Assembly (NCBI GenBank): GCA_023475565.1
Contig: JAMCVT010000104.1
Location: 11,486-75,485, forward strand
From: Actinomycetota bacterium
GTDB taxonomy: Bacteria; Bacillota; Desulfotomaculia; Desulfotomaculales; Desulfocucumaceae
DNA length: 64,000 nucleotides
Reading direction: 5' to 3'
In this document: positions 12,754-63,236 of the stretch, piece after piece
How the letters are laid out: the number at the start of each line of letters is the position of its first letter
Position numbering within the stretch: the first letter of the stretch is position 1
Translations under genes and position numbers: made by a program
Notes under the pieces: model-generated
Seen by the model: the letters and a program-made list of their open reading frames with translations, nothing else
Told to the model about the DNA's origin: nothing
Database searches by the model: none

Positions 12754-12774
12754 GCGGCTAATGGGCATTTCTTT

Positions 12775-12987
12775 CCGGTCGGAATTCAGAATTCAGAATC
12801 CAGGAGTCAGAATGGCTTGAGCATTACTTATTTGAATAAAACAGACAGGCTTTAACATTATAAATTCGGCTTTCGCCGCCCGTTGGGCGGCGTTTTATGT
12901 GCCGTTCGAAAGACATGGCAATCATTGGGCGAAAAGGAATGCTTTTCTATTCTGAATTCTGACTTCTGAATTCTGTATTCCGACCGG
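12775..12987. repeat. heptad-armed inverted-repeat element, copy E1
   Basis: The left arm CCGGTCGGAATTCAGAATTCAGAATCCAGGAGTCAGAATGG (12775-12815) matches the reverse complement of the right arm (12947-12987) at 35 of 41 positions. The centre holds a terminator and AAAAGGAATGC next to the right arm. Confidence 0.9.
12874..12897 (+). terminator. intrinsic terminator embedded in E1
   Basis: CGCCGCCC-GTT-GGGCGGCG followed by TTTTATGT, downstream of the 10717-12753 gene. Confidence 0.75.
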
Positions 12988-13012
12988 ATTTATTCTCAGT
13001 ATGAGCATAATT

Positions 13013-15024: not shown

Positions 15025-15176
15025 GGTCGGAATCCAGAATTAAGAATTCAGAAGCCAGAAGGGGAAAGGCATTCCTTTGCTGACAAAGCAACTTGCTGCT
15101 AATATTATTTTGACTAAAGAATGCAGCATGCAATAAACTTCTGAATTCTGACTTCTGGCTTCTGTATTCCGACCGG
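15025..15176. repeat. heptad-armed inverted-repeat element, copy E2 (centre modules inverted relative to E5)
   Basis: Left arm GGTCGGAATCCAGAATTAAGAATTCAGAAGCCAGAAGG; right arm CTTCTGAATTCTGACTTCTGGCTTCTGTATTCCGACCGG. GGCATTCC sits next to the left arm, and TTATTGCATGC (as reverse complement) next to the right arm. Confidence 0.9.
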
Positions 15177-15193
15177 AAAAACTGTCCCTTAAG

Positions 15194-15649
15194 CTAGAAA
15201 AGGCTGTATATCTCCAGCAGTATGGCGGTAACGGCTGCCGCCATCACCGGGCCGCAGGGGACGCCCCTTAAAAAAACGGTACCCAGTATGGTGCCCACCG
15301 TCATTCCGAAAATTATTTCAGGCATCACCTTCATGAGCTTTAAGCCCTCATTGTTCAGGTGGGTGGCCAGGGCTCCGCCGAAAAGGGCAATGACACCGGG
15401 CACTGTTGAAAAGCTGTATTTCACTTCTTTTATACTGACCTGGCCTTTGGCCAGGGGCAGCAGTATATAGACCATCAGCACCAGCAGCCCGAATTTGAGG
15501 CCTCTTTTTTCCAGCACGGGAAGCACATACTGCTCCATACCGGAAAATTTAACGGCCATCAGTATGCAGCTGGCCATGGCCACCAGGTTGGACTTTCCTA
15601 CTATGGCTATGATGAGAAGAAACAGCAGTACCAGCATAGGCGTGTCCAT
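15194..15649 (-). CDS. UPF0756/DUF441 family membrane protein
   Basis: 151-aa 4-TM protein. MDTPMLVLLFLLIIAIVGKSN... fits the family pattern as I recall it. Confidence 0.75.
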   Translation of the reverse strand: MDTPMLVLLFLLIIAIVGKSNLVAMASCILMAVKFSGMEQYVLPVLEKRGLKFGLLVLMVYILLPLAKGQVSIKEVKYSFSTVPGVIALFGGALATHLNNEGLKLMKVMPEIIFGMTVGTILGTVFLRGVPCGPVMAAAVTAILLEIYSLF

Positions 15650-28063: not shown

Positions 28064-28311
28064 GCTTATTCTGAAAAAAACCACTGTCGGAATACAGAAT
28101 TCAGAATTCAGAATTCAGATTTCCGGGTTGCCAAAAGTAGTCACCAAGGATAATGAAAATTCGGGTCCTTTTAAGGCCACAGAGGACACAGAGTTATATC
28201 TGCACGACTAATCAGCCTCATAATGACTTATTAGGAATGCCCAAACCATTTTTGAATTCTGACTCCTGACTTCTGACTTCTGTATTCCGACCGGAGGTAA
28301 TGCCCATTAGC
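28064..28311. repeat. heptad-armed element, copy E4 including outer flank modules
   Basis: The modules run GCTTATTCTGAAAAAAACCAC, TGTCGGAATACAGAATTCAGAATTCAGAATTCAGAT, centre, GAATTCTGACTCCTGACTTCTGACTTCTGTATTCCGACCGG, AGGTAATGCCCATTAGC. The element ends 6 nt before the hslU RBS. Confidence 0.9.
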
Positions 28312-30619: not shown

Positions 30620-30726
30620 GTAGTTGCCAAGCGGCACCATCAGAGGTTGAAAATACAAGGAATGCCCCCAAACCCTTCTGTATTCTGAATTCTGTATTCC
30701 GACCGATAAGAATTTCAGTATAAGCG
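30620..30726 (+). repeat. half copy of heptad-armed element (right arm only) with GTAGTTGCC...GCGGCACC module
   Basis: The sequence runs GTAGTTGCCAAGCGGCACCATCAGAGGTTGAAAATACAAGGAATGCC, then CTTCTGTATTCTGAATTCTGTATTCCGACCG, then ATAAGAATTTCAGTATAAGCG. No left arm is present upstream. Confidence 0.85.
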
Positions 30727-34411: not shown

Positions 34412-34428
34412 TCTCACAGGCACTGCTT

Positions 34429-34603
34429 TCCGGTCGGAATCCAGAATTCAGAAGCCAGGAGTCAGAATTTTTTGCAAGCTGTACTCTGAGGGCAGGCCGA
34501 ATGCCTTGATTTATAGCTGTCTTTTGACCTATAAGGAATGCCTGAAATTCTGGATTCTGAATTCTGACTCCTGTATTCCGACCGCAAAGAATTTCAGAAT
34601 AAG
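34429..34603. repeat. heptad-armed element, copy E5 (reference orientation)
   Basis: The modules run CCGGTCGGAATCCAGAATTCAGAAGCCAGGAGTCAGAAT, TTTTTTGCAAGCTG, centre, CTATAAGGAATGCCTGAA, ATTCTGGATTCTGAATTCTGACTCCTGTATTCCGACCG, CAAAGAATTTCAGAATAAGC. Confidence 0.9.
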
Positions 34604-40741: not shown

Positions 40742-40746
40742 GAATA

Positions 40747-40913
40747 CTTATACTGAAATTATTACCGGTCGGAATACAGAATTCAGAATTCAGAAGTCAG
40801 AATGCCTTAGGCATTCCTTACAAGTTGTTCCGTCTCCGGATTACTGCATGCAAAAAATCTGGATTCTGACTCCTGGCTTTTGGCTTCCGACCGCATAGAA
40901 ATTCAGAATAAGC
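40747..40913. repeat. heptad-armed element, copy E6 (inverted module order) with both outer flank modules
   Basis: The modules run CTTATACTGAAATTATTA, CCGGTCGGAATACAGAATTCAGAATTCAGAAGTCAGAAT, GCCTTAGGCATTCCTTACAAG, centre, GCATGCAAAAAATC, TGGATTCTGACTCCTGGCTTTTGGCTTCCGACCG, CATAGAAATTCAGAATAAGC. Confidence 0.9.
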
Positions 40914-40923
40914 TATTTTCGTA

Positions 40924-41004
40924 GTAGTTGCCTATACTGCAAGCGGCACCGTCAGATTATGAAAATACAAGGAATGCCCGGAATTCTGAATTCTGGGTTC
41001 TGAC
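40924..41004 (+). repeat. half copy of heptad-armed element, paralogous to 30620-30726
   Basis: GTAGTTGCCTATACTGCAAGCGGCACCGTCAGATTATGAAAATACAAGGAATGCCCGGAATTCTGAATTCTGGGTTCTGAC, followed by the 16-bp palindrome AATACTTATAAGTATT (41013-41028). Confidence 0.85.
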
Positions 41005-41050
41005 AGGAAAGCAATACTTATAAGTATTTTTACACCAAGGAGGAATTTAG

Positions 41051-52925: not shown

Positions 52926-53153
52926 GTGGGAGTCCCCAAATTGGATTCTCCTGAAGAGGAAATAAAGAGGTGGGTAAACCAAATAGCTCTGATATGCCTC
53001 AGTGAGGACTTTCAGACGTTAAAAAAGGAACTGGAGACTATATACAGCAAGTCCAACCTGGAAGATTTCAGGACAGTGGCATTTCAGGACGCCCTTTACG
53101 CATTTCTCGCCCAGGAAGAAGAAAACCTTTCTATAAATTCCGGCAGAGGCTGA
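52926..53153 (+). CDS. hypothetical 75-aa acidic protein (possible antitoxin-like partner)
   Basis: The GTG start follows AAGGAAGGGGA. It lies 13 nt upstream of the next small ORF. Confidence 0.45.
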   Translation: MGVPKLDSPEEEIKRWVNQIALICLSEDFQTLKKELETIYSKSNLEDFRTVAFQDALYAFLAQEEENLSINSGRG

Positions 53154-53166
53154 GAAGGTTTAGGGT

Positions 53167-53388
53167 ATGAAAGTGATAATAACTGAGCACGCGCGCAAAC
53201 GGCTGAAGGATATGCGTCAGGAAAGAATAACCATACAGGATATCAATAGCGCTGCCGCGGGTATTCCGGGAAAGGTGCCCACGGCCACCCGCTTCAGGGG
53301 TTTTTTTGCCAAGTCGGGGCGCATGTTTGATATAGTGGCCAAGGACATACCGGGAGGTCGCTTGGTAATAACAGTTATTGGTAAATAA
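53167..53388 (+). CDS. DUF4258-like small protein (putative toxin-like)
   Basis: ITEHARKRLKDMRQERITIQDI and the C-terminal RLVITVIGK resemble the DUF4258 pattern from memory. Confidence 0.5.
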   Translation: MKVIITEHARKRLKDMRQERITIQDINSAAAGIPGKVPTATRFRGFFAKSGRMFDIVAKDIPGGRLVITVIGK

Positions 53389-53470
53389 TATGAACTGCTG
53401 GCTAGGGGATTCGTTCTCCGGCGGTTTGCTTGGCCTGCAGCGATTATTCCGGGGTTAGGAGGTGAATAAA

Positions 53471-53740
53471 ATGGCACTGAGTCAGGAAAAAAAGAATGCC
53501 GTTATTGAGCAGCACAAGCTGCACGAGAGTGACACCGGTTCGCCGGAAGTGCAGATTGCTATACTTACCAATAGGATCAAGGCTTTGACCGAGCACCTGA
53601 AGATACACAAGAAGGATCACCACTCCAGGAGGGGCCTTCTTAAAATGGTGGGCCAGAGAAGAGCCCTTTTGAATTACCTGAAAGACAGTAATTTTGAGCG
53701 CTACCGTGCAATCCTTGAAAAGCTCCAGTTGCGCAAATAA
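53471..53740 (+). CDS. rpsO: 30S ribosomal protein S15
   Basis: [33 protein letters not shown]...[12 protein letters not shown]. Confidence 0.96.
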
Positions 53741-53752
53741 TAAGATTTAGAA

Positions 53753-53781
53753 AAAGCGGAGGAAATTTCCGCTTTTTTTTA
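53753..53781 (+). terminator. intrinsic terminator after rpsO
   Basis: AAGCGGA-GGAAATT-TCCGCTT followed by TTTTTTT. Confidence 0.8.
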
Positions 53782-53905
53782 TAGAGTTAAACGATTTGAA
53801 TACCATTCACGTATTTTTAGATTATCTGGCAGGAAATACTATAAAATATGTAGAATTACCATCGATTGCTAAAATATGATGAGATAATTGGGAGGATTTA
53901 ACTGA

Positions 53906-56146
53906 ATGTCAGAGGGAAAGATTCTGAGGAAAGAGATTGAAATTTCCGGCCGTAAGATGATACTGGAGACAGGCAGGGTCGCCAGGCAGGCCAGCGGGGC
54001 CGTGCTGGTGAGGTACGGCGACACGGTGGTGCTGGTTACCGCCACCATGGCGAAGAACAAGAGAGAAGGCATTGATTTTTTTCCTCTTACTGTAGATTAT
54101 GAGGAAAGGCTTTACGCTGTAGGCAAAATCCCCGGGGGATTTATAAAAAGGGAAAGCAGGCCCAGCGAAAAGGCTGTTTTATCAGGGAGGCTTATTGACC
54201 GCCCCATAAGGCCCCTTTTCCCGAAAGGATTCAGGAACGAAGTCCAGGTGGTGGCCACGGTTATGTCGGTGGACCAGGACAACGCGCCCGAAATGGCGGC
54301 CATGGTAGGCGCCTCAGCAGCCCTGCACCTAAGCCACATACCCTTTGCCGGGCCTATCGGCGGAGTTATCGTGGGACGGGTTGACGGCAGGCTGATTTTC
54401 AACCCCGGCATTGTTGAGGCGGAGAAAAGCGATCTGCACCTGGTGGTGGCAGGTACGGCGGATGCCGTAATGATGGTGGAGGCCGGGGCCCAGGAGGTTC
54501 CCGAGAGCGCTGTGCTGGAAGCCATCAGCTTCGGGCATGCCAAGGTACAGGAGATTGTCGGGGTCATTGAGGCTTTCAGGGCGGAGGCCCTGGCCATGGG
54601 ACTGGCCAGGGAAAAGATTGTGCCCGAAGTCAAAGCAGCGGCGCCCGAAGTGGAAGAAGCAGTCTACCCGGTAGCCGTGGAAAAGCTCACCGAGGCCGTC
54701 AGGCGCTGCGTCGCGGATAAAATGGACAAGAAAACCAGGGAAAACTTCCTGGATGATATGAAGGATGAAGTGGCTGCCCTGTTTGGGGAAAAATTCCCTG
54801 AACAGATGGGATCGGTCAAAAGCGTTATTGACACAGCCGAGAAAAAGGCCATGCGCCAGATGATCCTCAAGGAAAAGATTCGCATAGACGGCCGCAGCAC
54901 CACCGAGGTAAGGCCAATTACAGTGGAGGTGGGCATACTGCCCAGAACCCATGGGTCAGGGCTTTTTACCAGGGGGCAGACCCAGATACTTTCGGTGGTC
55001 ACCCTGGGCGCCATTTCCGAGGAGCAGCGCCTTGACGGCCTTGGAGTAGAGGAAACCAAGAGATTCATGCACCATTACAACTTCCCTCCCTGGCAATGTC
55101 CTCGGTCCAAGCCCATGCGCTCCCCCGGCAGGCGTGAGATAGGGCACGGGGCCCTTGCCGAGAGGGCGGTGGGAGCAATTATCCCGCCGGAGGATAAATT
55201 TCCATATACCATCAGGATAGTATCCGAGGCTTTGGAGTCCAACGGGTCCACCTCCATGGGCAGCGTCTGCGGAAGCTGCCTGGCGCTGATGGATGCCGGT
55301 GTGCCCATAAAGTCTCCGGTGGCCGGGGCGGCCATGGGACTGATCAAGGATGGTGACGAGGTGGCCATTCTAACCGATATACAGGGCATAGAGGACCACC
55401 TGGGGGACATGGACTTCAAGGTGGCCGGAACTGCCAACGGGGTTACCGCCATGCAGATGGACATCAAGGTGGCCGGTGTGACTCCCGAAGTGCTGGCCAG
55501 GGCGGTGGCCCAGGCCACAGATGCCAGGATGCACATACTTGGAAAGATGCTGGAGGTTATATCCACACCCAGGGAGGATCTTTCACGCTATGCTCCCAGG
55601 ATAATACACTTCAGCATAGATCCGGACAAGATAAGGGATGTTATAGGACCCGGCGGCAAGATTATTAAGAAGATTGTCGAGGAGACCGGGGTGGATATAG
55701 ACATAGAGGATGACGGCAGGGTTTACATAGCTGCGGTGGACCCCGAGGCCGGCAAGAAGGCGCTGGGCATAATAGAGGGTATAACCAGGGATGTGCAGGT
55801 AGGAGAAATATACAACGGCAAGGTGACCAGGGTGACAGACTTCGGCTGCTTTGTGGAGATAATCCCCGGAGTATTGGGCCTGCCCGGCAAGGAGGGTCTG
55901 GTGCACATATCACAGCTGGCCCATCACAGGGTGGCCAGGACCGAGGACATTGCCAGGGAAGGGGAACCCATACTGGTAAAGGCCATCGGCTACGACAACC
56001 AGGGCCGGCTGAAGCTTTCCCGCAAGGAGGCGGTTCCACCTGAGCCGGGTGAGCTGGAGATGGCCCAGGACAGCGGCGGCCCCCCTCCCCCCAGAAGGGA
56101 TTTCAGGGATAACCGCCAGCCGCCCCGGGGAAGAAGGAACGACTGA
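53906..56146 (+). CDS. pnp: polyribonucleotide nucleotidyltransferase (PNPase)
   Basis: Two RNase PH cores, then KH ([10 protein letters not shown]) and S1 ([15 protein letters not shown]). An atypical WQCPRS sits where (F/Y)SVGE(T/A) is expected after HHYNFPP. Confidence 0.93.
55087..55108. repeat. left arm of 22-bp perfect inverted repeat inside pnp
   Basis: TCCCTGGCAATGTCCTCGGTCC is the exact reverse complement of 55938-55959. Confidence 0.95.
55938..55959. repeat. right arm of 22-bp perfect inverted repeat inside pnp
   Basis: GGACCGAGGACATTGCCAGGGA encodes an ordinary-looking S1-domain segment (ARTEDIARE). Confidence 0.95.
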
Positions 56147-56170
56147 CAAATCAATAAAAGAAAGCATATA

Positions 56171-56204
56171 AACAGAGAGCAGTCACATGCGTCTCTGTTT
56201 TTTT
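56171..56204 (+). terminator. intrinsic terminator after pnp
   Basis: AACAGAGA-loop-TCTCTGTT followed by TTTTTT. Confidence 0.8.
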
Positions 56205-56269
56205 AAAATATATGAAATTATGCCGGCGGAGAATTTCCCAGGGTTTTAAAAAGTGGGAGCTCCCCCTCA

Positions 56270-56315
56270 TTGCGGGGTGAGGGACCGATAGTCCTAAAGC
56301 GGCGGCAGCCCCTCC
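56270..56315 (+). repeat. 46-nt conserved motif, copy C
   Basis: TTGCGGGGTGAGGGACCGATAGTCCTAAAGCGGCGGCAGCCCCTCC followed by TTTTTAATTTTTT, 139 nt upstream of the kinase gene. Confidence 0.85.
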
Positions 56316-56453
56316 TTTTTAATTTTTTGGTAACATAAACTTAACACTGCCATGCAACATTTTTAACCGGTAGTATGATAAAATTTGAGTTATACCTGGA
56401 TGAGCGCACAGTTTTGGCTCAGCCAAAAACTTTAAGAGCCGGGGGTTTGTTTT

Positions 56454-57836
56454 TTGTTTAAAAGGTTCAGGGAATTTGCCGGGAGCATAAGCTGGCGGCC
56501 TTTGGCCGGCTATTTCCTAATGCTGTTTGTTTTTTATGCGGCCGTGGAGTTTTTTGCCGGGGACAGGGTAAATGCCTGGGCGGTGGTCCTGGTGGCCCTT
56601 CCTTTCGCCATAGCCCTGGCCTGGATTCTGTTGAAAAGAATACTGGAGCCCCTGGCGGAGATATCGGAGGCGGCCAGGGAAATGGCCCTGGGCTATCTGG
56701 ACCGGGAAATAAGGATTTATCACGACGATGAATTAGGGGTGCTGGCCAGGAATATAAACCTTCTGGGCAGAAAGCTGAGGCAGACCATCTATGAGATAAC
56801 CGAGGAAAAAGACAGGATGGGAGCGGTGCTAAACAGTATGGCCGACGGTGTGATCGCCGTGGATGGCGATGGCCGGGTGCTGCTGGTCAACCCCGTGGTG
56901 GAAAAGGCCCTGAACATATCCGGTGAGCAGTGCAGGGGCAAGGACATAGTGGGTGTGATAAGGCACCTGGACTTTGAAAACAGCTTTCAGACCGCCCTGA
57001 AAAACCAGGAGGACCTCACCCGGGAGATACAGGTGCTGACCCCGGACCCCAGGTACTACCGGGTCCATTTTACACCCCTGAAGGGGACCGGCAGGGGAGG
57101 GGTGGTGGCTCTCTTGCGGGATATTACCGAAAGGCGGCAGCTTGACCAGATGAGGGCTGAGTTTATCGCCAATGTCTCCCATGAGCTGAGAACACCGCTG
57201 ACATCCATACGGGGATTTCTGGAAACCCTTCTGGACGGGGCCGTTGAGGACAGGGAAACAGCCCTTCGCTTTTTGAAGATTATTGACGCCGAGACCGGGC
57301 GTATGACCGGGCTTATAGGGGATCTCTTCTCCCTTTCCAATATAGAAAGCGGAAGGGTGGCGCCGGTCATGGAAGAAATAAAAATGGCCGGTATAATTGA
57401 CAAGGTCTTTGCCATATTCAGCCATGCCGCCGGGGAAAGGGATATAAAACTCATTTCCGGGATACCGCCGGACTTCCCGGTGCTAACCGGTGACACCGGC
57501 ATGATCACCAGGGTTTTAATAAACCTGGTGGATAATGCTATAAAGTACAGCCATGACGGAGGCGAGGTTACCCTTTCCGGGGGGCCCGCCGGTGGGGGCG
57601 AAATTTTTGTCAGGGTGTCCGACAGGGGCATAGGCATACCCGAGGAAAGTCTTTCCAGAATTTTTGAGCGGCTGTACCGGGTTGATAAAGCCAGATCCAG
57701 GGAATACGGCGGCTCCGGCCTCGGCCTGGCTATTGTAAAACATATACTGGAGGCCCACCACGGAAGGATTGAGGTGTCCAGCAGGCCAGGACTGGGCAGT
57801 ACCTTCACGGTATACCTTCCGGTAAAACAAATTTAA
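56454..57836 (+). CDS. PhoR-like sensor histidine kinase (TM-HAMP-PAS-HisKA-HATPase)
   Basis: H-box SHELRTPLTSIRGFLETL, with N, G1 and G2 boxes (DNAIKYS, DRGIGIP, GGSGLGLAIVK). Confidence 0.88.
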   Translation: MFKRFREFAGSISWRPLAGYFLMLFVFYAAVEFFAGDRVNAWAVVLVALPFAIALAWILLKRILEPLAEISEAAREMALGYLDREIRIYHDDELGVLARNINLLGRKLRQTIYEITEEKDRMGAVLNSMADGVIAVDGDGRVLLVNPVVEKALNISGEQCRGKDIVGVIRHLDFENSFQTALKNQEDLTREIQVLTPDPRYYRVHFTPLKGTGRGGVVALLRDITERRQLDQMRAEFIANVSHELRTPLTSIRGFLETLLDGAVEDRETALRFLKIIDAETGRMTGLIGDLFSLSNIESGRVAPVMEEIKMAGIIDKVFAIFSHAAGERDIKLISGIPPDFPVLTGDTGMITRVLINLVDNAIKYSHDGGEVTLSGGPAGGGEIFVRVSDRGIGIPEESLSRIFERLYRVDKARSREYGGSGLGLAIVKHILEAHHGRIEVSSRPGLGSTFTVYLPVKQI

Positions 57837-57930
57837 AAACTGTTACCTTTTAGGCTTTTTAAGTGTAAAATGTTTATATTATTTAATCTAATCGGAATCC
57901 CGATAGAAGCATTACAGGAGGTAGGCCGGG

Positions 57931-58587
57931 ATGGGCAGGTACCTGTTCGATAAATCACTGAGAGAGATACAAAACGACATTTTACGCATGGGCGGGCTGG
58001 TGGAAAAGGCCATCTATGATTCGGTGGACGCCTTCATGAACCAGGATGTTACCGCCGCTGCCGGTGTAATAATGGGAGACGAGCGGATTGACGAGCTGTT
58101 TACCGAGATAGAGGATAAATGCATAAAGCTTATAGCCACCCAGCAGCCTATAGCCAGGGATTTAAGGGTGGCGGTGACGGGAATAAAGATACTGACCAGC
58201 CTGGAAAGAATGGCCGACCACTCGGTGGATATAGCCAGATCCACCATGTGCCTGGCCGGGCACCCCATGGCCCTGCGCCCCCTGCAGGAAATTCCCCGGA
58301 TGGCCAGGCTGGCCAGGCAGATGGTCAAAGACGGGCTGGACGCCTATGTGCACCGGGATGTGAACAAGGCCAGGGAAATGTGCGCCATGGACGACCAGGT
58401 GGATTTTATTTTCTCACATGTATTCAGGGATACCATCAGCTGCATGGCCGAGGATCCCGGAGTGGTGACCCAGGGCGCCTACCTGCTGTATGTTTCCCGC
58501 TACCTGGAGCGTATTGCCGACCACGCCACCAATATAGGGGAGGCTGTCATATACCTGGCCACCGGTGAAAGAAGGGAGCTTAATTAA
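57931..58587 (+). CDS. phoU: phosphate signalling complex protein PhoU
   Basis: Two PhoU repeats with RMADHSVDIA and RIADHATNIGE. Confidence 0.93.
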   Translation: MGRYLFDKSLREIQNDILRMGGLVEKAIYDSVDAFMNQDVTAAAGVIMGDERIDELFTEIEDKCIKLIATQQPIARDLRVAVTGIKILTSLERMADHSVDIARSTMCLAGHPMALRPLQEIPRMARLARQMVKDGLDAYVHRDVNKAREMCAMDDQVDFIFSHVFRDTISCMAEDPGVVTQGAYLLYVSRYLERIADHATNIGEAVIYLATGERRELN

Positions 58588-58605
58588 GCTAAAGGGTACT
58601 GCACC

Positions 58606-58834
58606 CCGGTCGGAATCCAGAATTCAGAATTCAGAATGAGCATACGGTTCTGATCTGTATCCGGGCTGCTTGGGAAACTGTCTCTCGTTGTTATGCCTGC
58701 GCCACCCGAGGGGTGGCTTTTAGTTTAGCCGGAAAAGCATATGCACACTATGGCCCCAAAAGTAATTATTGGCCATCTCTTTAAAGGAAGGCTGAAACCG
58801 CTTCTGAATTCTGGATTCTGGATTCTGAATTCCG
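58606..58834. repeat. heptad-armed element, copy E7
   Basis: The left arm is CCGGTCGGAATCCAGAATTCAGAATTCAGAAT and the right arm is CTTCTGAATTCTGGATTCTGGATTCTGAATTCCG. The centre holds a terminator, with AAAGGAAGGCTGAAA next to the right arm. Confidence 0.88.
58701..58721 (+). terminator. intrinsic terminator embedded in E7
   Basis: GCCACCC-GAG-GGGTGGC followed by TTTT, downstream of phoU. Confidence 0.7.
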
Positions 58835-58921
58835 CCACCCAGAGGCGGTCAGAACATTTATGTTTAAAACATGTCGATAATAGTTTAAAATAGGGTAGTA
58901 AAATGTTTCGGAGGTGCCGGT

Positions 58922-61337: not shown

Positions 61338-61397
61338 GGCTTATAGGTACTGCTTTGCGGTCGGAATTCAGAATACAGGAGTCAGAAGCCAGAATGG
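61338..61397. repeat. left flank and left arm only of a heptad-armed element (E8)
   Basis: GGCTTATAGGTACTGCTTT then GCGGTCGGAATTCAGAATACAGGAGTCAGAAGCCAGAATGG. No centre modules or right arm follow within the window. Confidence 0.85.
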
Positions 61398-61403
61398 GTT
61401 GGC

Positions 61404-62233: not shown

Positions 62234-63236
62234 AAGGGGGTCAGGCCTGAAACCTTGATATTTTGTGCAGCTTTTTTATATGTACTTCCACGCCTTCTTT
62301 CCCTCGGGCCAACATCTTGGATATTGCAGATTCAGTAATACCGAATGATTCTGCCAACTCACGGTGAGGTATTCTGGTATATTCCCTGCAAAAGTTTACC
62401 AGGGTTCTGCGGGCCAGCCCCAATTATTTTCTCCTGCTTCGGCTAATGAGTTCTTTTACCTCAACTTCATAAATATCTGCGATCAGTTCAATAAGTTCTT
62501 TCAGAGACTTTCGTATGAGTTGGTCTTCCAATTTTTCAGGTTCACCGTCATGAGGTCCTTCTTCAAGTTCAACCTGCTTATCTCTTCCTCTTCTTCCCCC
62601 ATAAAGTCCAGGTATCTGATAACAGCCTGTTGTTTGTTTTCAGAAAAAAGGCCAAGAGGATACGTAGTATCTGTAACCCTTCTTTTTTCAGCAGTTTATA
62701 TCGCTATGGCTGTTGTACGGATAGTCAATCCCGGTATCCATTTTTGCCCGTTCCGGATTCTGATGAACGTAACGTATAAGGGAAAGCAGGTAGATATCCT
62801 TGTTACAGAGTACAGCTTTATACCTTTGTTCAAATACATGCCCGCTGTGCCTATTCGTTTGATTGTACCACGTTGTGTAGGTCTGCTGGATGCCCTGCAT
62901 GATCTTCCAAAGCGGTTTATCCCCCACTTCTATAGCAGATGCACATGGTTCGACATAACCACCCAGGCATAAAGGCTGAATCCATACCGTTGCTTATATT
63001 TTTCTATTAATGACAGGTATTCTTTTTTCTCTAATTCCTGTTTAAATACCCACTCTTTGTTGTTGCCACGACAAATCACATGATATTAAAGCACCAGGGT
63101 AGTGTATCCTGGATTTTCTGGGCATTTATTTGTTCCTCCTTTCCTTGTTAAAAACACAAGAAAGCGGCAGGTTGTCTTCTGCCGCAAATATATTACTTGT
63201 CATGCATTATGTCAATTATTCAGGCCTGACCCCCTT
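62234..63236 (-). mobile_element. decayed Y1-transposase unit bounded by 18-bp perfect inverted repeats
   Basis: AAGGGGGTCAGGCCTGAA (62234-62251) is the exact reverse complement of TTCAGGCCTGACCCCCTT (63219-63236). Each arm contains the 10-bp palindrome TCAGGCCTGA. Confidence 0.75.
62241..63125 (-). pseudogene. IS200/RAYT-like Y1 (HUH) transposase with C-terminal HTH, disrupted
   Basis: The minus strand reads MPRKSRIHYPGAL, then a frameshift, then YHVICRGNN...SNHVHLL (HUH), a stop and frameshift, then VGDKPLW...GHVFEQRYKAVL (catalytic Tyr)...YVHQNPERA, a stop, a gap, and the HTH segment RELAESFGITESAISKML. There are at least two frameshifts and two premature stops. Confidence 0.8.

What the first reader, a model, noticed from the sequence alone, without database searches (positions are those of the whole stretch)
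55087..55959. Perfect 22-bp inverted repeat inside pnp; one arm overwrites the conserved SVGE core motif
TCCCTGGCAATGTCCTCGGTCC (55087-55108) is the exact reverse complement of GGACCGAGGACATTGCCAGGGA (55938-55959). A 22-bp perfect match is not expected by chance in 64 kb. The right arm encodes a normal S1-domain segment (ARTEDIARE). The left arm makes PNPase read [27 protein letters not shown]. From memory, E. coli and B. subtilis PNPases have (F/Y)SVGET at exactly these six residues of the second RNase PH core. The length is preserved and neither alternative frame restores SVGE. It therefore looks as if a copy of the downstream sequence replaced the native 21-22 nt. Possibilities are an intragenic invertible or recombinogenic segment of 873 bp, a long-range 22-bp mRNA duplex (an ideal RNase III substrate, which is interesting because pnp is autoregulated through RNase III in E. 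coli), a gene-conversion scar that inactivates PNPase, or an assembly or editing artefact.
Basis: partly seen in the sequence, partly recalled or inferred. Interest (0 to 1): 0.7.

Follow-up and report, generated by a model that had tools for sequence, protein, structure and literature searches.

The report
One-off reverse-complement patch in pnp
The 22-base inverted repeat is really in this sequence, but it is a 15-base copy error found only in this one metagenome assembly; six other assemblies of the same strain have the normal PNPase motif, so it is a private scar or artefact, not a switch or regulatory element.

Summary
55087-55108 is the exact reverse complement of 55938-55959, and this is far beyond chance. 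Both arms lie inside a 746-aa PNPase gene, and the left arm turns the invariant [FY]S[TV]GE[T] motif into WQCPRS.

The repeat is not a property of the organism. Six independent assemblies of the same strain span the site, from six sequencing runs in two accession series. All read TACAGCACCGGGGAAACC (YSTGET).

Only 15 consecutive bases (55092-55106) differ from those assemblies. They are the reverse complement of 55940-55954. The flanking TCCCT and CC were already complementary to the donor's flanks.

Independent contigs cover 42.9 kb of the window. This is the only clustered difference; the rest are isolated SNPs. 119 of 120 relatives keep the motif. No recombinase lies nearby and no inverted form was found.

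Best reading: a single template-switch-type copying error, private to this MAG. I cannot tell whether it arose outside the cell (about 0.5) or is a genuine recent loss-of-function allele in one subpopulation (about 0.4). The invertible-segment and RNase III readings are not supported. Interest is low.

The parts
53906..56146 (+). pnp ORF (polynucleotide phosphorylase, 746 aa) that contains both arms
   Evidence: ORF. Pfam RNase_PH x2, RNase_PH_C, PNPase, KH_1 and S1. The exact product is NCBI MCL5058096.1.
55087..55108 (.). Left arm of the perfect 22-nt inverted repeat (TCCCTGGCAATGTCCTCGGTCC)
55092..55106 (+). The foreign patch. These 15 consecutive bases (GGCAATGTCCTCGGT) replace the native ACAGCACCGGGGAAA and change YSTGET to WQCPRS (residues 396-401).
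   Evidence: Ungapped comparison with L001 and L002 and with six contigs. It is the only clustered difference in 42,867 compared bases.
55087..55091 (.). Native TCCCT: 5-nt microhomology with AGGGA at 55955-55959 (inferred exit point of the switch)
   Evidence: Present unchanged in all six native contigs. Position-by-position match.
55107..55108 (.). Native CC: 2-nt microhomology with GG at 55938-55939 (inferred return point)
55938..55959 (.). Right arm, the donor. It is normal S1-domain coding sequence (RTEDIARE). Bases 55940-55954 (ACCGAGGACATTGCC) are the template of the patch.
   Evidence: Identical in L001, L002 and L003. The relative L024 differs at 2 nt here, so the patch copies this lineage's own version.

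Best explanation
The repeat is the footprint of one template-switch-type copying error that exists only in this MAG record.

Proposed event: a polymerase copying the + strand left its template after TCCCT (55087-55091). It re-annealed through that 5-nt microhomology to the opposite strand 0.83 kb downstream (AGGGA, 55955-55959). It copied 15 nt (55954 down to 55940), then returned to the original template in register through CC/GG (55107-55108 / 55938-55939).

Result: a 15-nt reverse-complement patch, a perfect 22-nt inverted repeat, and YSTGET changed to WQCPRS.

Shown: the patch boundaries, the donor, the microhomologies, the ancestral state, and the fact that it is private to this record.

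Inferred: that a polymerase switch made it, and where that happened. I lean slightly to an origin outside the cell. That would be strand-displacement amplification or library chemistry, or a consensus step that absorbed chimeric reads. In that case the organism's real pnp is the canonical one, and the repeat has no function as a switch or regulator.
For: - The exact variant protein is on record only as NCBI MCL5058096.1, from one 77,447-nt MAG contig.
- Six independent contigs span the site: SRR22746142, -139, -141, -128, -129 and SRR10252151. All read CCCTACAGCACCGGGGAAACC = YSTGET.
- Over 10,799 nt the window differs from L001 only by one SNP and by 15 consecutive bases, 55092-55106.
- Over 42,867 window bases covered by independent contigs, this is the only clustered difference.
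- The patch is the exact reverse complement of 55940-55954, with native TCCCT and CC microhomology at its ends.
- It copies this lineage's own right arm, not the version in the 93%-identical relative. That relative reads FSTGET.
- 119 of 120 relatives have [FY]S[TVN]GE[TAV]. S397, G399 and E400 are invariant in 30 diverse relatives. Solved PNPases show the same motif.

Three points favour a technical origin:
- The patch destroys an invariant motif, as if no selection had acted on it.
- The length is preserved exactly.
- The donor is on the opposite strand less than 1 kb away. That is the geometry of inverted chimeras, which are primed on 2-21 nt of complementarity in multiple displacement amplification (PMC1855051).
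Against: - No read-level data are available, and the library and assembly methods of this MAG could not be traced.
- A de Bruijn or overlap assembler cannot jump strands on 5 nt of homology. Molecules carrying the patch therefore probably existed (inference).
- The described MDA chimeras are single junctions with an intervening deletion. They are not a double switch that returns in register.
- An ex vivo event would have to be clonally amplified to reach the consensus.
- The window carries a haplotype (C at 54439) that differs from five of the six contigs. It could therefore be a distinct subpopulation with a genuine private mutation.
Confidence: 0.5

Rival explanations
1. Same copying mechanism, but inside the cell. 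This would be a genuine replication-associated template-switch mutation. In the four-point nomenclature the order is 1-4-3-2 on the + strand, which is 3-2-1-4 read on the - strand. It would have arisen recently in one subpopulation and would be a private, probably loss-of-function, pnp allele.
For: - The patch has the anatomy of a template-switch mutation cluster: a perfect reverse-complement fragment of at least 10 nt, otherwise identical flanks, and 2-5 nt of identity at the switch points. These events create novel inverted repeats without a pre-existing repeat (PMC5453318; PMC5941160).
- An assembler needs real reads to produce the patch (inference).
- Returning in register is typical of a transient switch by a tethered nascent strand (inference).
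- Several haplotypes of this strain coexist across runs.
- The patch is in frame with no stop codon.
- PNPase is dispensable in several bacteria (general knowledge).
Against: - It is absent from all six other assemblies of the strain.
- It destroys a motif kept in 119 of 120 relatives, so purifying selection should remove it.
- The donor lies about 833 nt away. Short-range template switching is usually studied within tens to hundreds of nucleotides, for example +/-100 nt in PMC7954356.
- Exact length preservation is not required by the mechanism.
Confidence: 0.4
2. Purely computational error (misassembly, gap filling or polishing), with no molecule ever carrying the patch.
For: The patch occurs in one MAG only. 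That MAG's phylum label (Actinobacteria) disagrees with the gene content (Peptococcaceae or Desulfocucumaceae-like), which suggests limited curation. The length is preserved exactly.
Against: Natively only 5 + 2 nt are shared between the two sites. That is far below any k-mer or overlap length. I know of no assembler step that writes a reverse complement of sequence 0.83 kb away into an otherwise perfect 77-kb contig (inference). There is no other anomaly in 42.9 kb.
Confidence: 0.05
3. Programmed DNA inversion: the 22-bp arms are recombination sites that flip the 873-bp segment and switch pnp off and on.
For: A perfect 22-bp inverted repeat 829 nt apart.
Against: - The repeat does not exist in six sibling assemblies or in relatives.
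- No contig shows the inverted orientation.
- The neighbours are truB, ribF, two small ORFs, rpsO, a PAS/HisKA kinase and phoU. None is an invertase.
- The only tyrosine recombinase seen is a XerC/D-like gene next to hslV, 28 kb away.
- Either orientation would leave PNPase without its motif.
Confidence: 0.02
4. Regulatory long-range mRNA duplex (an RNase III substrate) that controls pnp expression.
For: The two arms could pair with a predicted duplex energy of -47.5 kcal/mol, against -12.6 for the native sequences.
Against: - The duplex is not conserved. The native gene in the same strain cannot form it.
- It costs an invariant protein motif.
- The E. coli autoregulatory hairpin is in the 5' leader, not inside the ORF (general knowledge).
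- No Rfam family matches here.
Confidence: 0.02

Closest known systems
Template-switch mutations (Ripley model; four-point model of Loytynoja & Goldman, PMC5453318)
   Same: A cluster of adjacent changes is fully explained by one reverse-complement copy of nearby sequence. There are a few bases of identity at the switch points. A new perfect inverted repeat is created without a pre-existing one.
   Different: The donor is about 833 nt away, whereas such events are usually catalogued within tens to hundreds of nucleotides. Whether this event happened in vivo is unproven.
Quasi-palindrome correction in bacteria (thyA and rpsL hotspots; reviewed in PMC5941160)
   Same: Two template switches yield a perfect inverted repeat.
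   Different: Those events perfect an existing imperfect repeat with a short spacer (searched with spacers of up to 70 bp in that study). Here only 7 of 22 positions matched beforehand and the spacer is 829 nt.
Inverted chimeras of multiple displacement amplification (Lasken & Stockwell, PMC1855051)
   Same: Inverted orientation, an intramolecular nearby donor, and priming on 2-21 nt of complementarity.
   Different: Those chimeras are single junctions with an intervening deletion. Here there are two junctions 15 nt apart with no loss of sequence. It is unknown whether MDA was used.
E. coli pnp autoregulation through an RNase III-cut leader hairpin
   Same: The same gene, and a long perfect duplex is possible in the mRNA.
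   Different: That hairpin is a conserved 5'-leader structure (general knowledge). This duplex is intragenic, spans 829 nt and is absent from the same strain in other assemblies.
Site-specific DNA inversion switches (Hin/Gin/Fim type)
   Same: Inverted repeats flank a segment of about 0.9 kb.
   Different: No recombinase is nearby, the repeat is not conserved, no second orientation was found, and the arms lie inside coding sequence.

Membership tests
Template-switch event (four-point model) | Clustered differences from the ancestral sequence are explained by one reverse-complement copy of nearby sequence (fragment of at least 10 nt, no mismatches) | tested here: met
   15 of 15 differing bases equal the reverse complement of 55940-55954, or 22 of 22 with the flanks. 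The ancestral state comes from six contigs and an outgroup.
Template-switch event (four-point model) | Flanks are otherwise identical to the ancestral sequence | tested here: met
   There is no other difference within 650 nt on either side in L001 and L002.
Template-switch event (four-point model) | Donor lies within short range (tens to hundreds of nt; +/-100 nt in PMC7954356) | tested here: not met
   The donor core lies 833 nt downstream of the patch. This is a limit of the detection methods, not a known limit of the mechanism.
Template-switch event (four-point model) | Arose during DNA replication in the cell | not testable with these tools
   This needs the source reads or the sample.
MDA or library inverted chimera | Inverted join primed on 2-21 nt of complementarity | tested here: met
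   5-nt and 2-nt microhomologies. Criterion.
MDA or library inverted chimera | Single junction with an intervening deletion | tested here: not met
   Two junctions and exact length preservation.
MDA or library inverted chimera | The sample was amplified by strand displacement | not testable with these tools
   No paper or record describing the sample was found.
Programmed inversion switch | Inverted repeats are conserved in relatives | tested here: not met
   Absent in six sibling contigs, in L024, and at protein level in 119 of 120 relatives.
Programmed inversion switch | A dedicated recombinase is encoded nearby | tested here: not met
   Gene tables of L001 and L003. The only integrase-family gene found is XerC/D-like, about 28 kb away.
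Programmed inversion switch | Both orientations are found in populations | tested here: not met
   All contigs covering 55109-55937 are collinear with the window. Reads were not available.
RNase III-controlled pnp leader | A conserved hairpin in the 5' untranslated leader | tested here: not met
   The pairing is intragenic and private. There is no Rfam hit in the region.
Catalytically competent PNPase | Domain order RNase PH - PNPase - RNase PH - KH - S1 | tested here: met
Catalytically competent PNPase | [FY]S[TV]GE[T] motif upstream of the RRE..H loop in the second RNase PH domain | tested here: not met
   The window has WQCPRS. The downstream GRREIGHG is intact. In M. smegmatis PNPase the equivalent Arg430, Arg431 and His435 were identified as RNA or phosphate contacts (PMC8284320). 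The role of the motif itself was not found in the papers read, so loss of activity is inferred from conservation only.

The most novel reading that the evidence does not exclude
The patch is a genuine in vivo mutation. On this reading, a single long-range (about 0.83 kb) template switch in a wild or enrichment population of a Desulfotomaculia-like bacterium did two things in one step: it created a perfect 22-bp inverted repeat de novo inside a housekeeping gene, and it knocked out an invariant PNPase motif. That would be a natural example of templated mutation acting well beyond the range usually surveyed.
Probability: 0.4. Interest if true: 0.35.

Novelty: not a real feature. Interest (0 to 1): 0.13.

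Why it matters
The main value is as a caution. One MAG record carries a PNPase whose invariant motif has been overwritten, and the same protein sits in NCBI nr as an ordinary PNPase. Anyone who uses this record for motif statistics, selection scans or inverted-repeat surveys would be misled.

If the patch proved to be a real allele, it would be a clean natural case of a long-range template switch creating a perfect inverted repeat in one step. That would be modestly useful to people who study templated mutagenesis, but it would not be a new kind of system.

Tried and rejected
- **Provenance:** full-text searches for the run, assembly and protein accessions found nothing relevant. The sample type, library method and assembler therefore remain unknown.
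- **Public collections:**
  - A scan of species-representative genomes for the site, with the 15 bases left free, found nothing.
  - The JGI metagenome scan found only a 93%-identical relative carrying the native motif.
  - Exact look-ups of the variant PNPase and of two other window ORFs returned nothing. About 21 kb of the window therefore could not be compared with independent contigs.
- **Structure prediction:** AlphaFold2 models were made with the native protein or the window variant as first sequence. Both give pLDDT below 50 for about residues 390-414 and are otherwise the same. They say nothing about the effect of the patch.
- **Motif literature:** a search for the motif string gave only noise. 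The PNPase structure papers I read do not discuss these six residues.
- **Second case of the same phenomenon:** I checked the other long non-family inverted repeat (18 nt, 62234-62251 / 63219-63236). It is not one. It flanks a decayed IS200-like transposase gene.
- **Relation between patch and native bases:** I looked for a complement, reverse or reverse-complement relation between the native 15 nt and the patch and saw none. All 15 positions differ, which has a probability of about 0.013-0.024 by chance. I treat this as coincidence.
- **PCR primer:** I considered a 22-mer PCR primer as the source. I rejected it because 7 of the 22 bases are native flank in perfect register.

Full report
**1. 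The observation**

The window contains TCCCTGGCAATGTCCTCGGTCC at 55087-55108 and its exact reverse complement at 55938-55959. None of 100 dinucleotide-preserving shuffles produced a match. A uniform model expects about 1e-4 such pairs in 64 kb.

Among all exact inverted repeats of at least 14 nt in the window, this is the third longest. It is the longest that does not belong to a dispersed intergenic repeat family.

Both arms lie in one ORF, 53906-56146 (+), 746 aa.
- The left arm gives [27 protein letters not shown] (residues 396-401).
- The right arm encodes RTEDIARE (residues 678-685) in the S1 domain. This segment is normal for the lineage: ARTEDIARE or AKTEDIARE also occurs in relatives.
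- The other two frames do not restore the motif.

**2. Whether the repeat belongs to the organism**

The exact 746-aa product is in the public protein collection only as NCBI MCL5058096.1, 'MAG: Actinobacteria bacterium', from one 77,447-nt contig. The patch is therefore in the deposited record.

Its 90%-identity cluster holds a second full-length protein, from Logan assemblies of raw runs. That protein is identical at 740 of 746 residues and reads YSTGET where the window reads WQCPRS.

I fetched the DNA. Six contigs span the site. They were assembled independently from six runs: SRR22746142, -139, -141, -128, -129 and SRR10252151. All read CCC-TAC-AGC-ACC-GGG-GAA-ACC.

Over the 10,799 nt of L001, the window differs only by one SNP (54439) and by 15 consecutive bases, 55092-55106.

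In total, 36 independent contigs cover 42,867 of the 64,000 window bases. The only clustered difference is this block. Everything else is isolated SNPs carried by one or a few contigs.

A relative with 93% nucleotide identity in pnp (JGI Ga0209347_1006736) reads TTCAGCACCGGGGAAACC = FSTGET. The canonical sequence is therefore ancestral.

Among 120 homologues down to about 69% identity, 119 have [FY]S[TVN]GE[TAV]. Only the window protein has WQCPRS. S397, G399 and E400 are invariant in a 30-sequence alignment. Solved PNPase structures show the same motif.

**3. Anatomy of the patch**

| | sequence |
|---|---|
| Native | TCCCT ACAGCACCGGGGAAA CC |
| Window | TCCCT GGCAATGTCCTCGGT CC |

The 15 new bases are the exact reverse complement of 55940-55954 (ACCGAGGACATTGCC). 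The five bases before the patch and the two after it are native, and they already matched the donor's flanks (AGGGA and GG).

The '22-bp perfect repeat' is thus a 15-nt copy plus 5 + 2 nt of microhomology.

The donor arm is unchanged in L001, L002 and L003. The 93% relative differs from the window at two positions of the donor region (AAG for AGG just upstream of the arm, GAT for GAC inside it). The patch carries the window lineage's GAC version. The copy is therefore recent and came from this gene itself.

In the restored native sequence, TCCCT occurs 13 times on the opposite strand within +/-1.5 kb. Only the actual donor has CC at the in-register distance.

**4. Mechanism**

A replacement by the reverse complement of nearby sequence, bounded by a few bases of identity, is what the four-point template-switch model describes. 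The nascent strand leaves its template at point 1, copies a fragment 2->3 in reverse-complement orientation, and returns at point 4.

Such events create novel inverted repeats without a pre-existing repeat. [quoted passage not shown]

Here the order along the + strand is 1 (55091), 4 (55107), 3 (55940), 2 (55954). Read on the other strand, this is the '3-2-1-4' type that the paper says creates an inverted repeat (my mapping).

The unusual aspect is distance. The donor core is 833 nt from the patch, whereas surveys restrict themselves to tens to hundreds of nucleotides (PMC7954356).

**5. In the cell or in the tube?**

This cannot be settled without reads.

For an origin outside the cell:
- The patch is unique to one record, although the same strain was assembled many times.
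- It destroys an invariant motif, as if no selection had acted on it.
- It preserves length exactly.
- A nearby opposite-strand donor primed on short complementarity is the signature of inverted chimeras in multiple displacement amplification (PMC1855051).

For a real mutation:
- An assembler cannot cross strands on 5 nt of identity, so molecules with the patch probably existed.
- The described MDA chimeras are single junctions with deletions, not a double switch returning in register.
- Several haplotypes of this strain coexist. The window carries the ancestral C at 54439, where five of the six contigs have T, so it may represent its own subpopulation.

My estimates:

| Reading | Probability |
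|---|---|
| Ex vivo origin | about 0.5 |
| Genuine private allele | about 0.4 |
| Purely computational error | about 0.05 |
| Functional readings combined | about 0.04 |

**6. The functional readings**

Invertible segment:
- The repeat is absent from siblings and relatives.
- Every contig covering the interval is collinear with the window.
- The neighbours are nusA, ylxR, L7Ae, infB, rbfA, a DHH protein, truB, ribF, two small ORFs and rpsO upstream, and a PAS/HisKA kinase and phoU downstream.
- The only integrase-family gene seen is XerC/D-like, next to an hslV-like gene about 28 kb away.

RNA duplex:
- The arms could pair at -47.5 kcal/mol, against -12.6 for the native sequences.
- A structure that the same strain lacks elsewhere, and that costs an invariant motif, is not a conserved regulator.
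- Rfam finds nothing in the region.

Consequence for the enzyme:
- The GRREIGHG loop 8-13 residues downstream is intact. In M. smegmatis PNPase its equivalents Arg430, Arg431 and His435 were identified as RNA or phosphate contacts, and the R431A mutant was inert or severely impaired (PMC8284320).
- The papers I read do not assign a role to the six replaced residues.
- AlphaFold2 models of both versions are unconfident there.
- Loss of activity is therefore an inference from conservation alone.

**7. Verdict**

But the repeat is a private, one-off copying scar in one MAG. It is not a feature of the organism's pnp, and it is not a switch or regulator.

Interest is low. The residual interest lies in the roughly 0.4 chance that this is a natural long-range template-switch mutation.

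Noticed in passing
window ~12757-13008, 15025-15194, 28064-28301, 30675-30724, 34413-34603, 40744-41024, 58596-58837, 61353-61400: A dispersed intergenic repeat with core GGTCGGAAT(N)CAGAAT, followed by a run of TCAGAA-like hexamers. It has 18 hits at up to 2 mismatches, against 0.2 expected. Six copies form convergent pairs 110-215 nt apart whose interiors look different, which is MITE- or REPIN-like. Independent Logan contigs tend to break at these sites.
   Followed up: partly
window 62234-63236: An 18-nt perfect inverted repeat (AAGGGGGTCAGGCCTGAA, 62234-62251 / 63219-63236) flanks an AT-rich 1-kb segment. On the - strand the segment carries a frameshifted IS200-like Y1 transposase (Pfam Y1_Tnp, E = 1.3e-12) with a weak DnaA_C-like HTH tail (below Pfam's cut-off). 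This is a decayed mobile element or RAYT-like gene. Any link to the dispersed repeats above was not tested.
   Followed up: partly
whole window / NCBI record of MCL5058096.1: The MAG is labelled 'Actinobacteria bacterium'. However, its PNPase is closest to Peptococcaceae bacterium BICA1-7 (93%) and to Desulfocucumaceae or Desulfotomaculia genomes. The gene order nusA-ylxR-L7Ae-infB-rbfA-nrnA-truB-ribF-rpsO-pnp is Bacillota-like (the Bacillota-like assessment is from general knowledge). A sister MAG contig (GCA_023379775.1) is labelled Firmicutes. This suggests a mislabelled bin or a contaminating contig.
   Followed up: partly
window 53338-55882: Strain microdiversity. At least three pnp haplotypes occur among the runs: T at 54439 in five contigs; 53728A/53745G/54301T in SRR22746128 and SRR10252151; and four other SNPs in GCA_023379775.1. 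The window's combination (the common haplotype but with the ancestral C at 54439) is not seen in any other contig.
   Followed up: partly
L003 (GCA_023379775.1 JAMCPB010000484.1) = window 55188-58650: This sister MAG contig starts 80 nt downstream of the left arm, so it does not cover the site. Its last 81 nt do not align to the window beyond 58650, next to a dispersed-repeat copy. Whether the break near the patch is a coincidence is unknown.
   Followed up: no
window 52926-53388: Two small adjacent ORFs (called as 70 and 73 aa, with no Pfam hit on record) sit between ribF and rpsO. The same pair is present in all sibling contigs. Their function is unknown.
   Followed up: no
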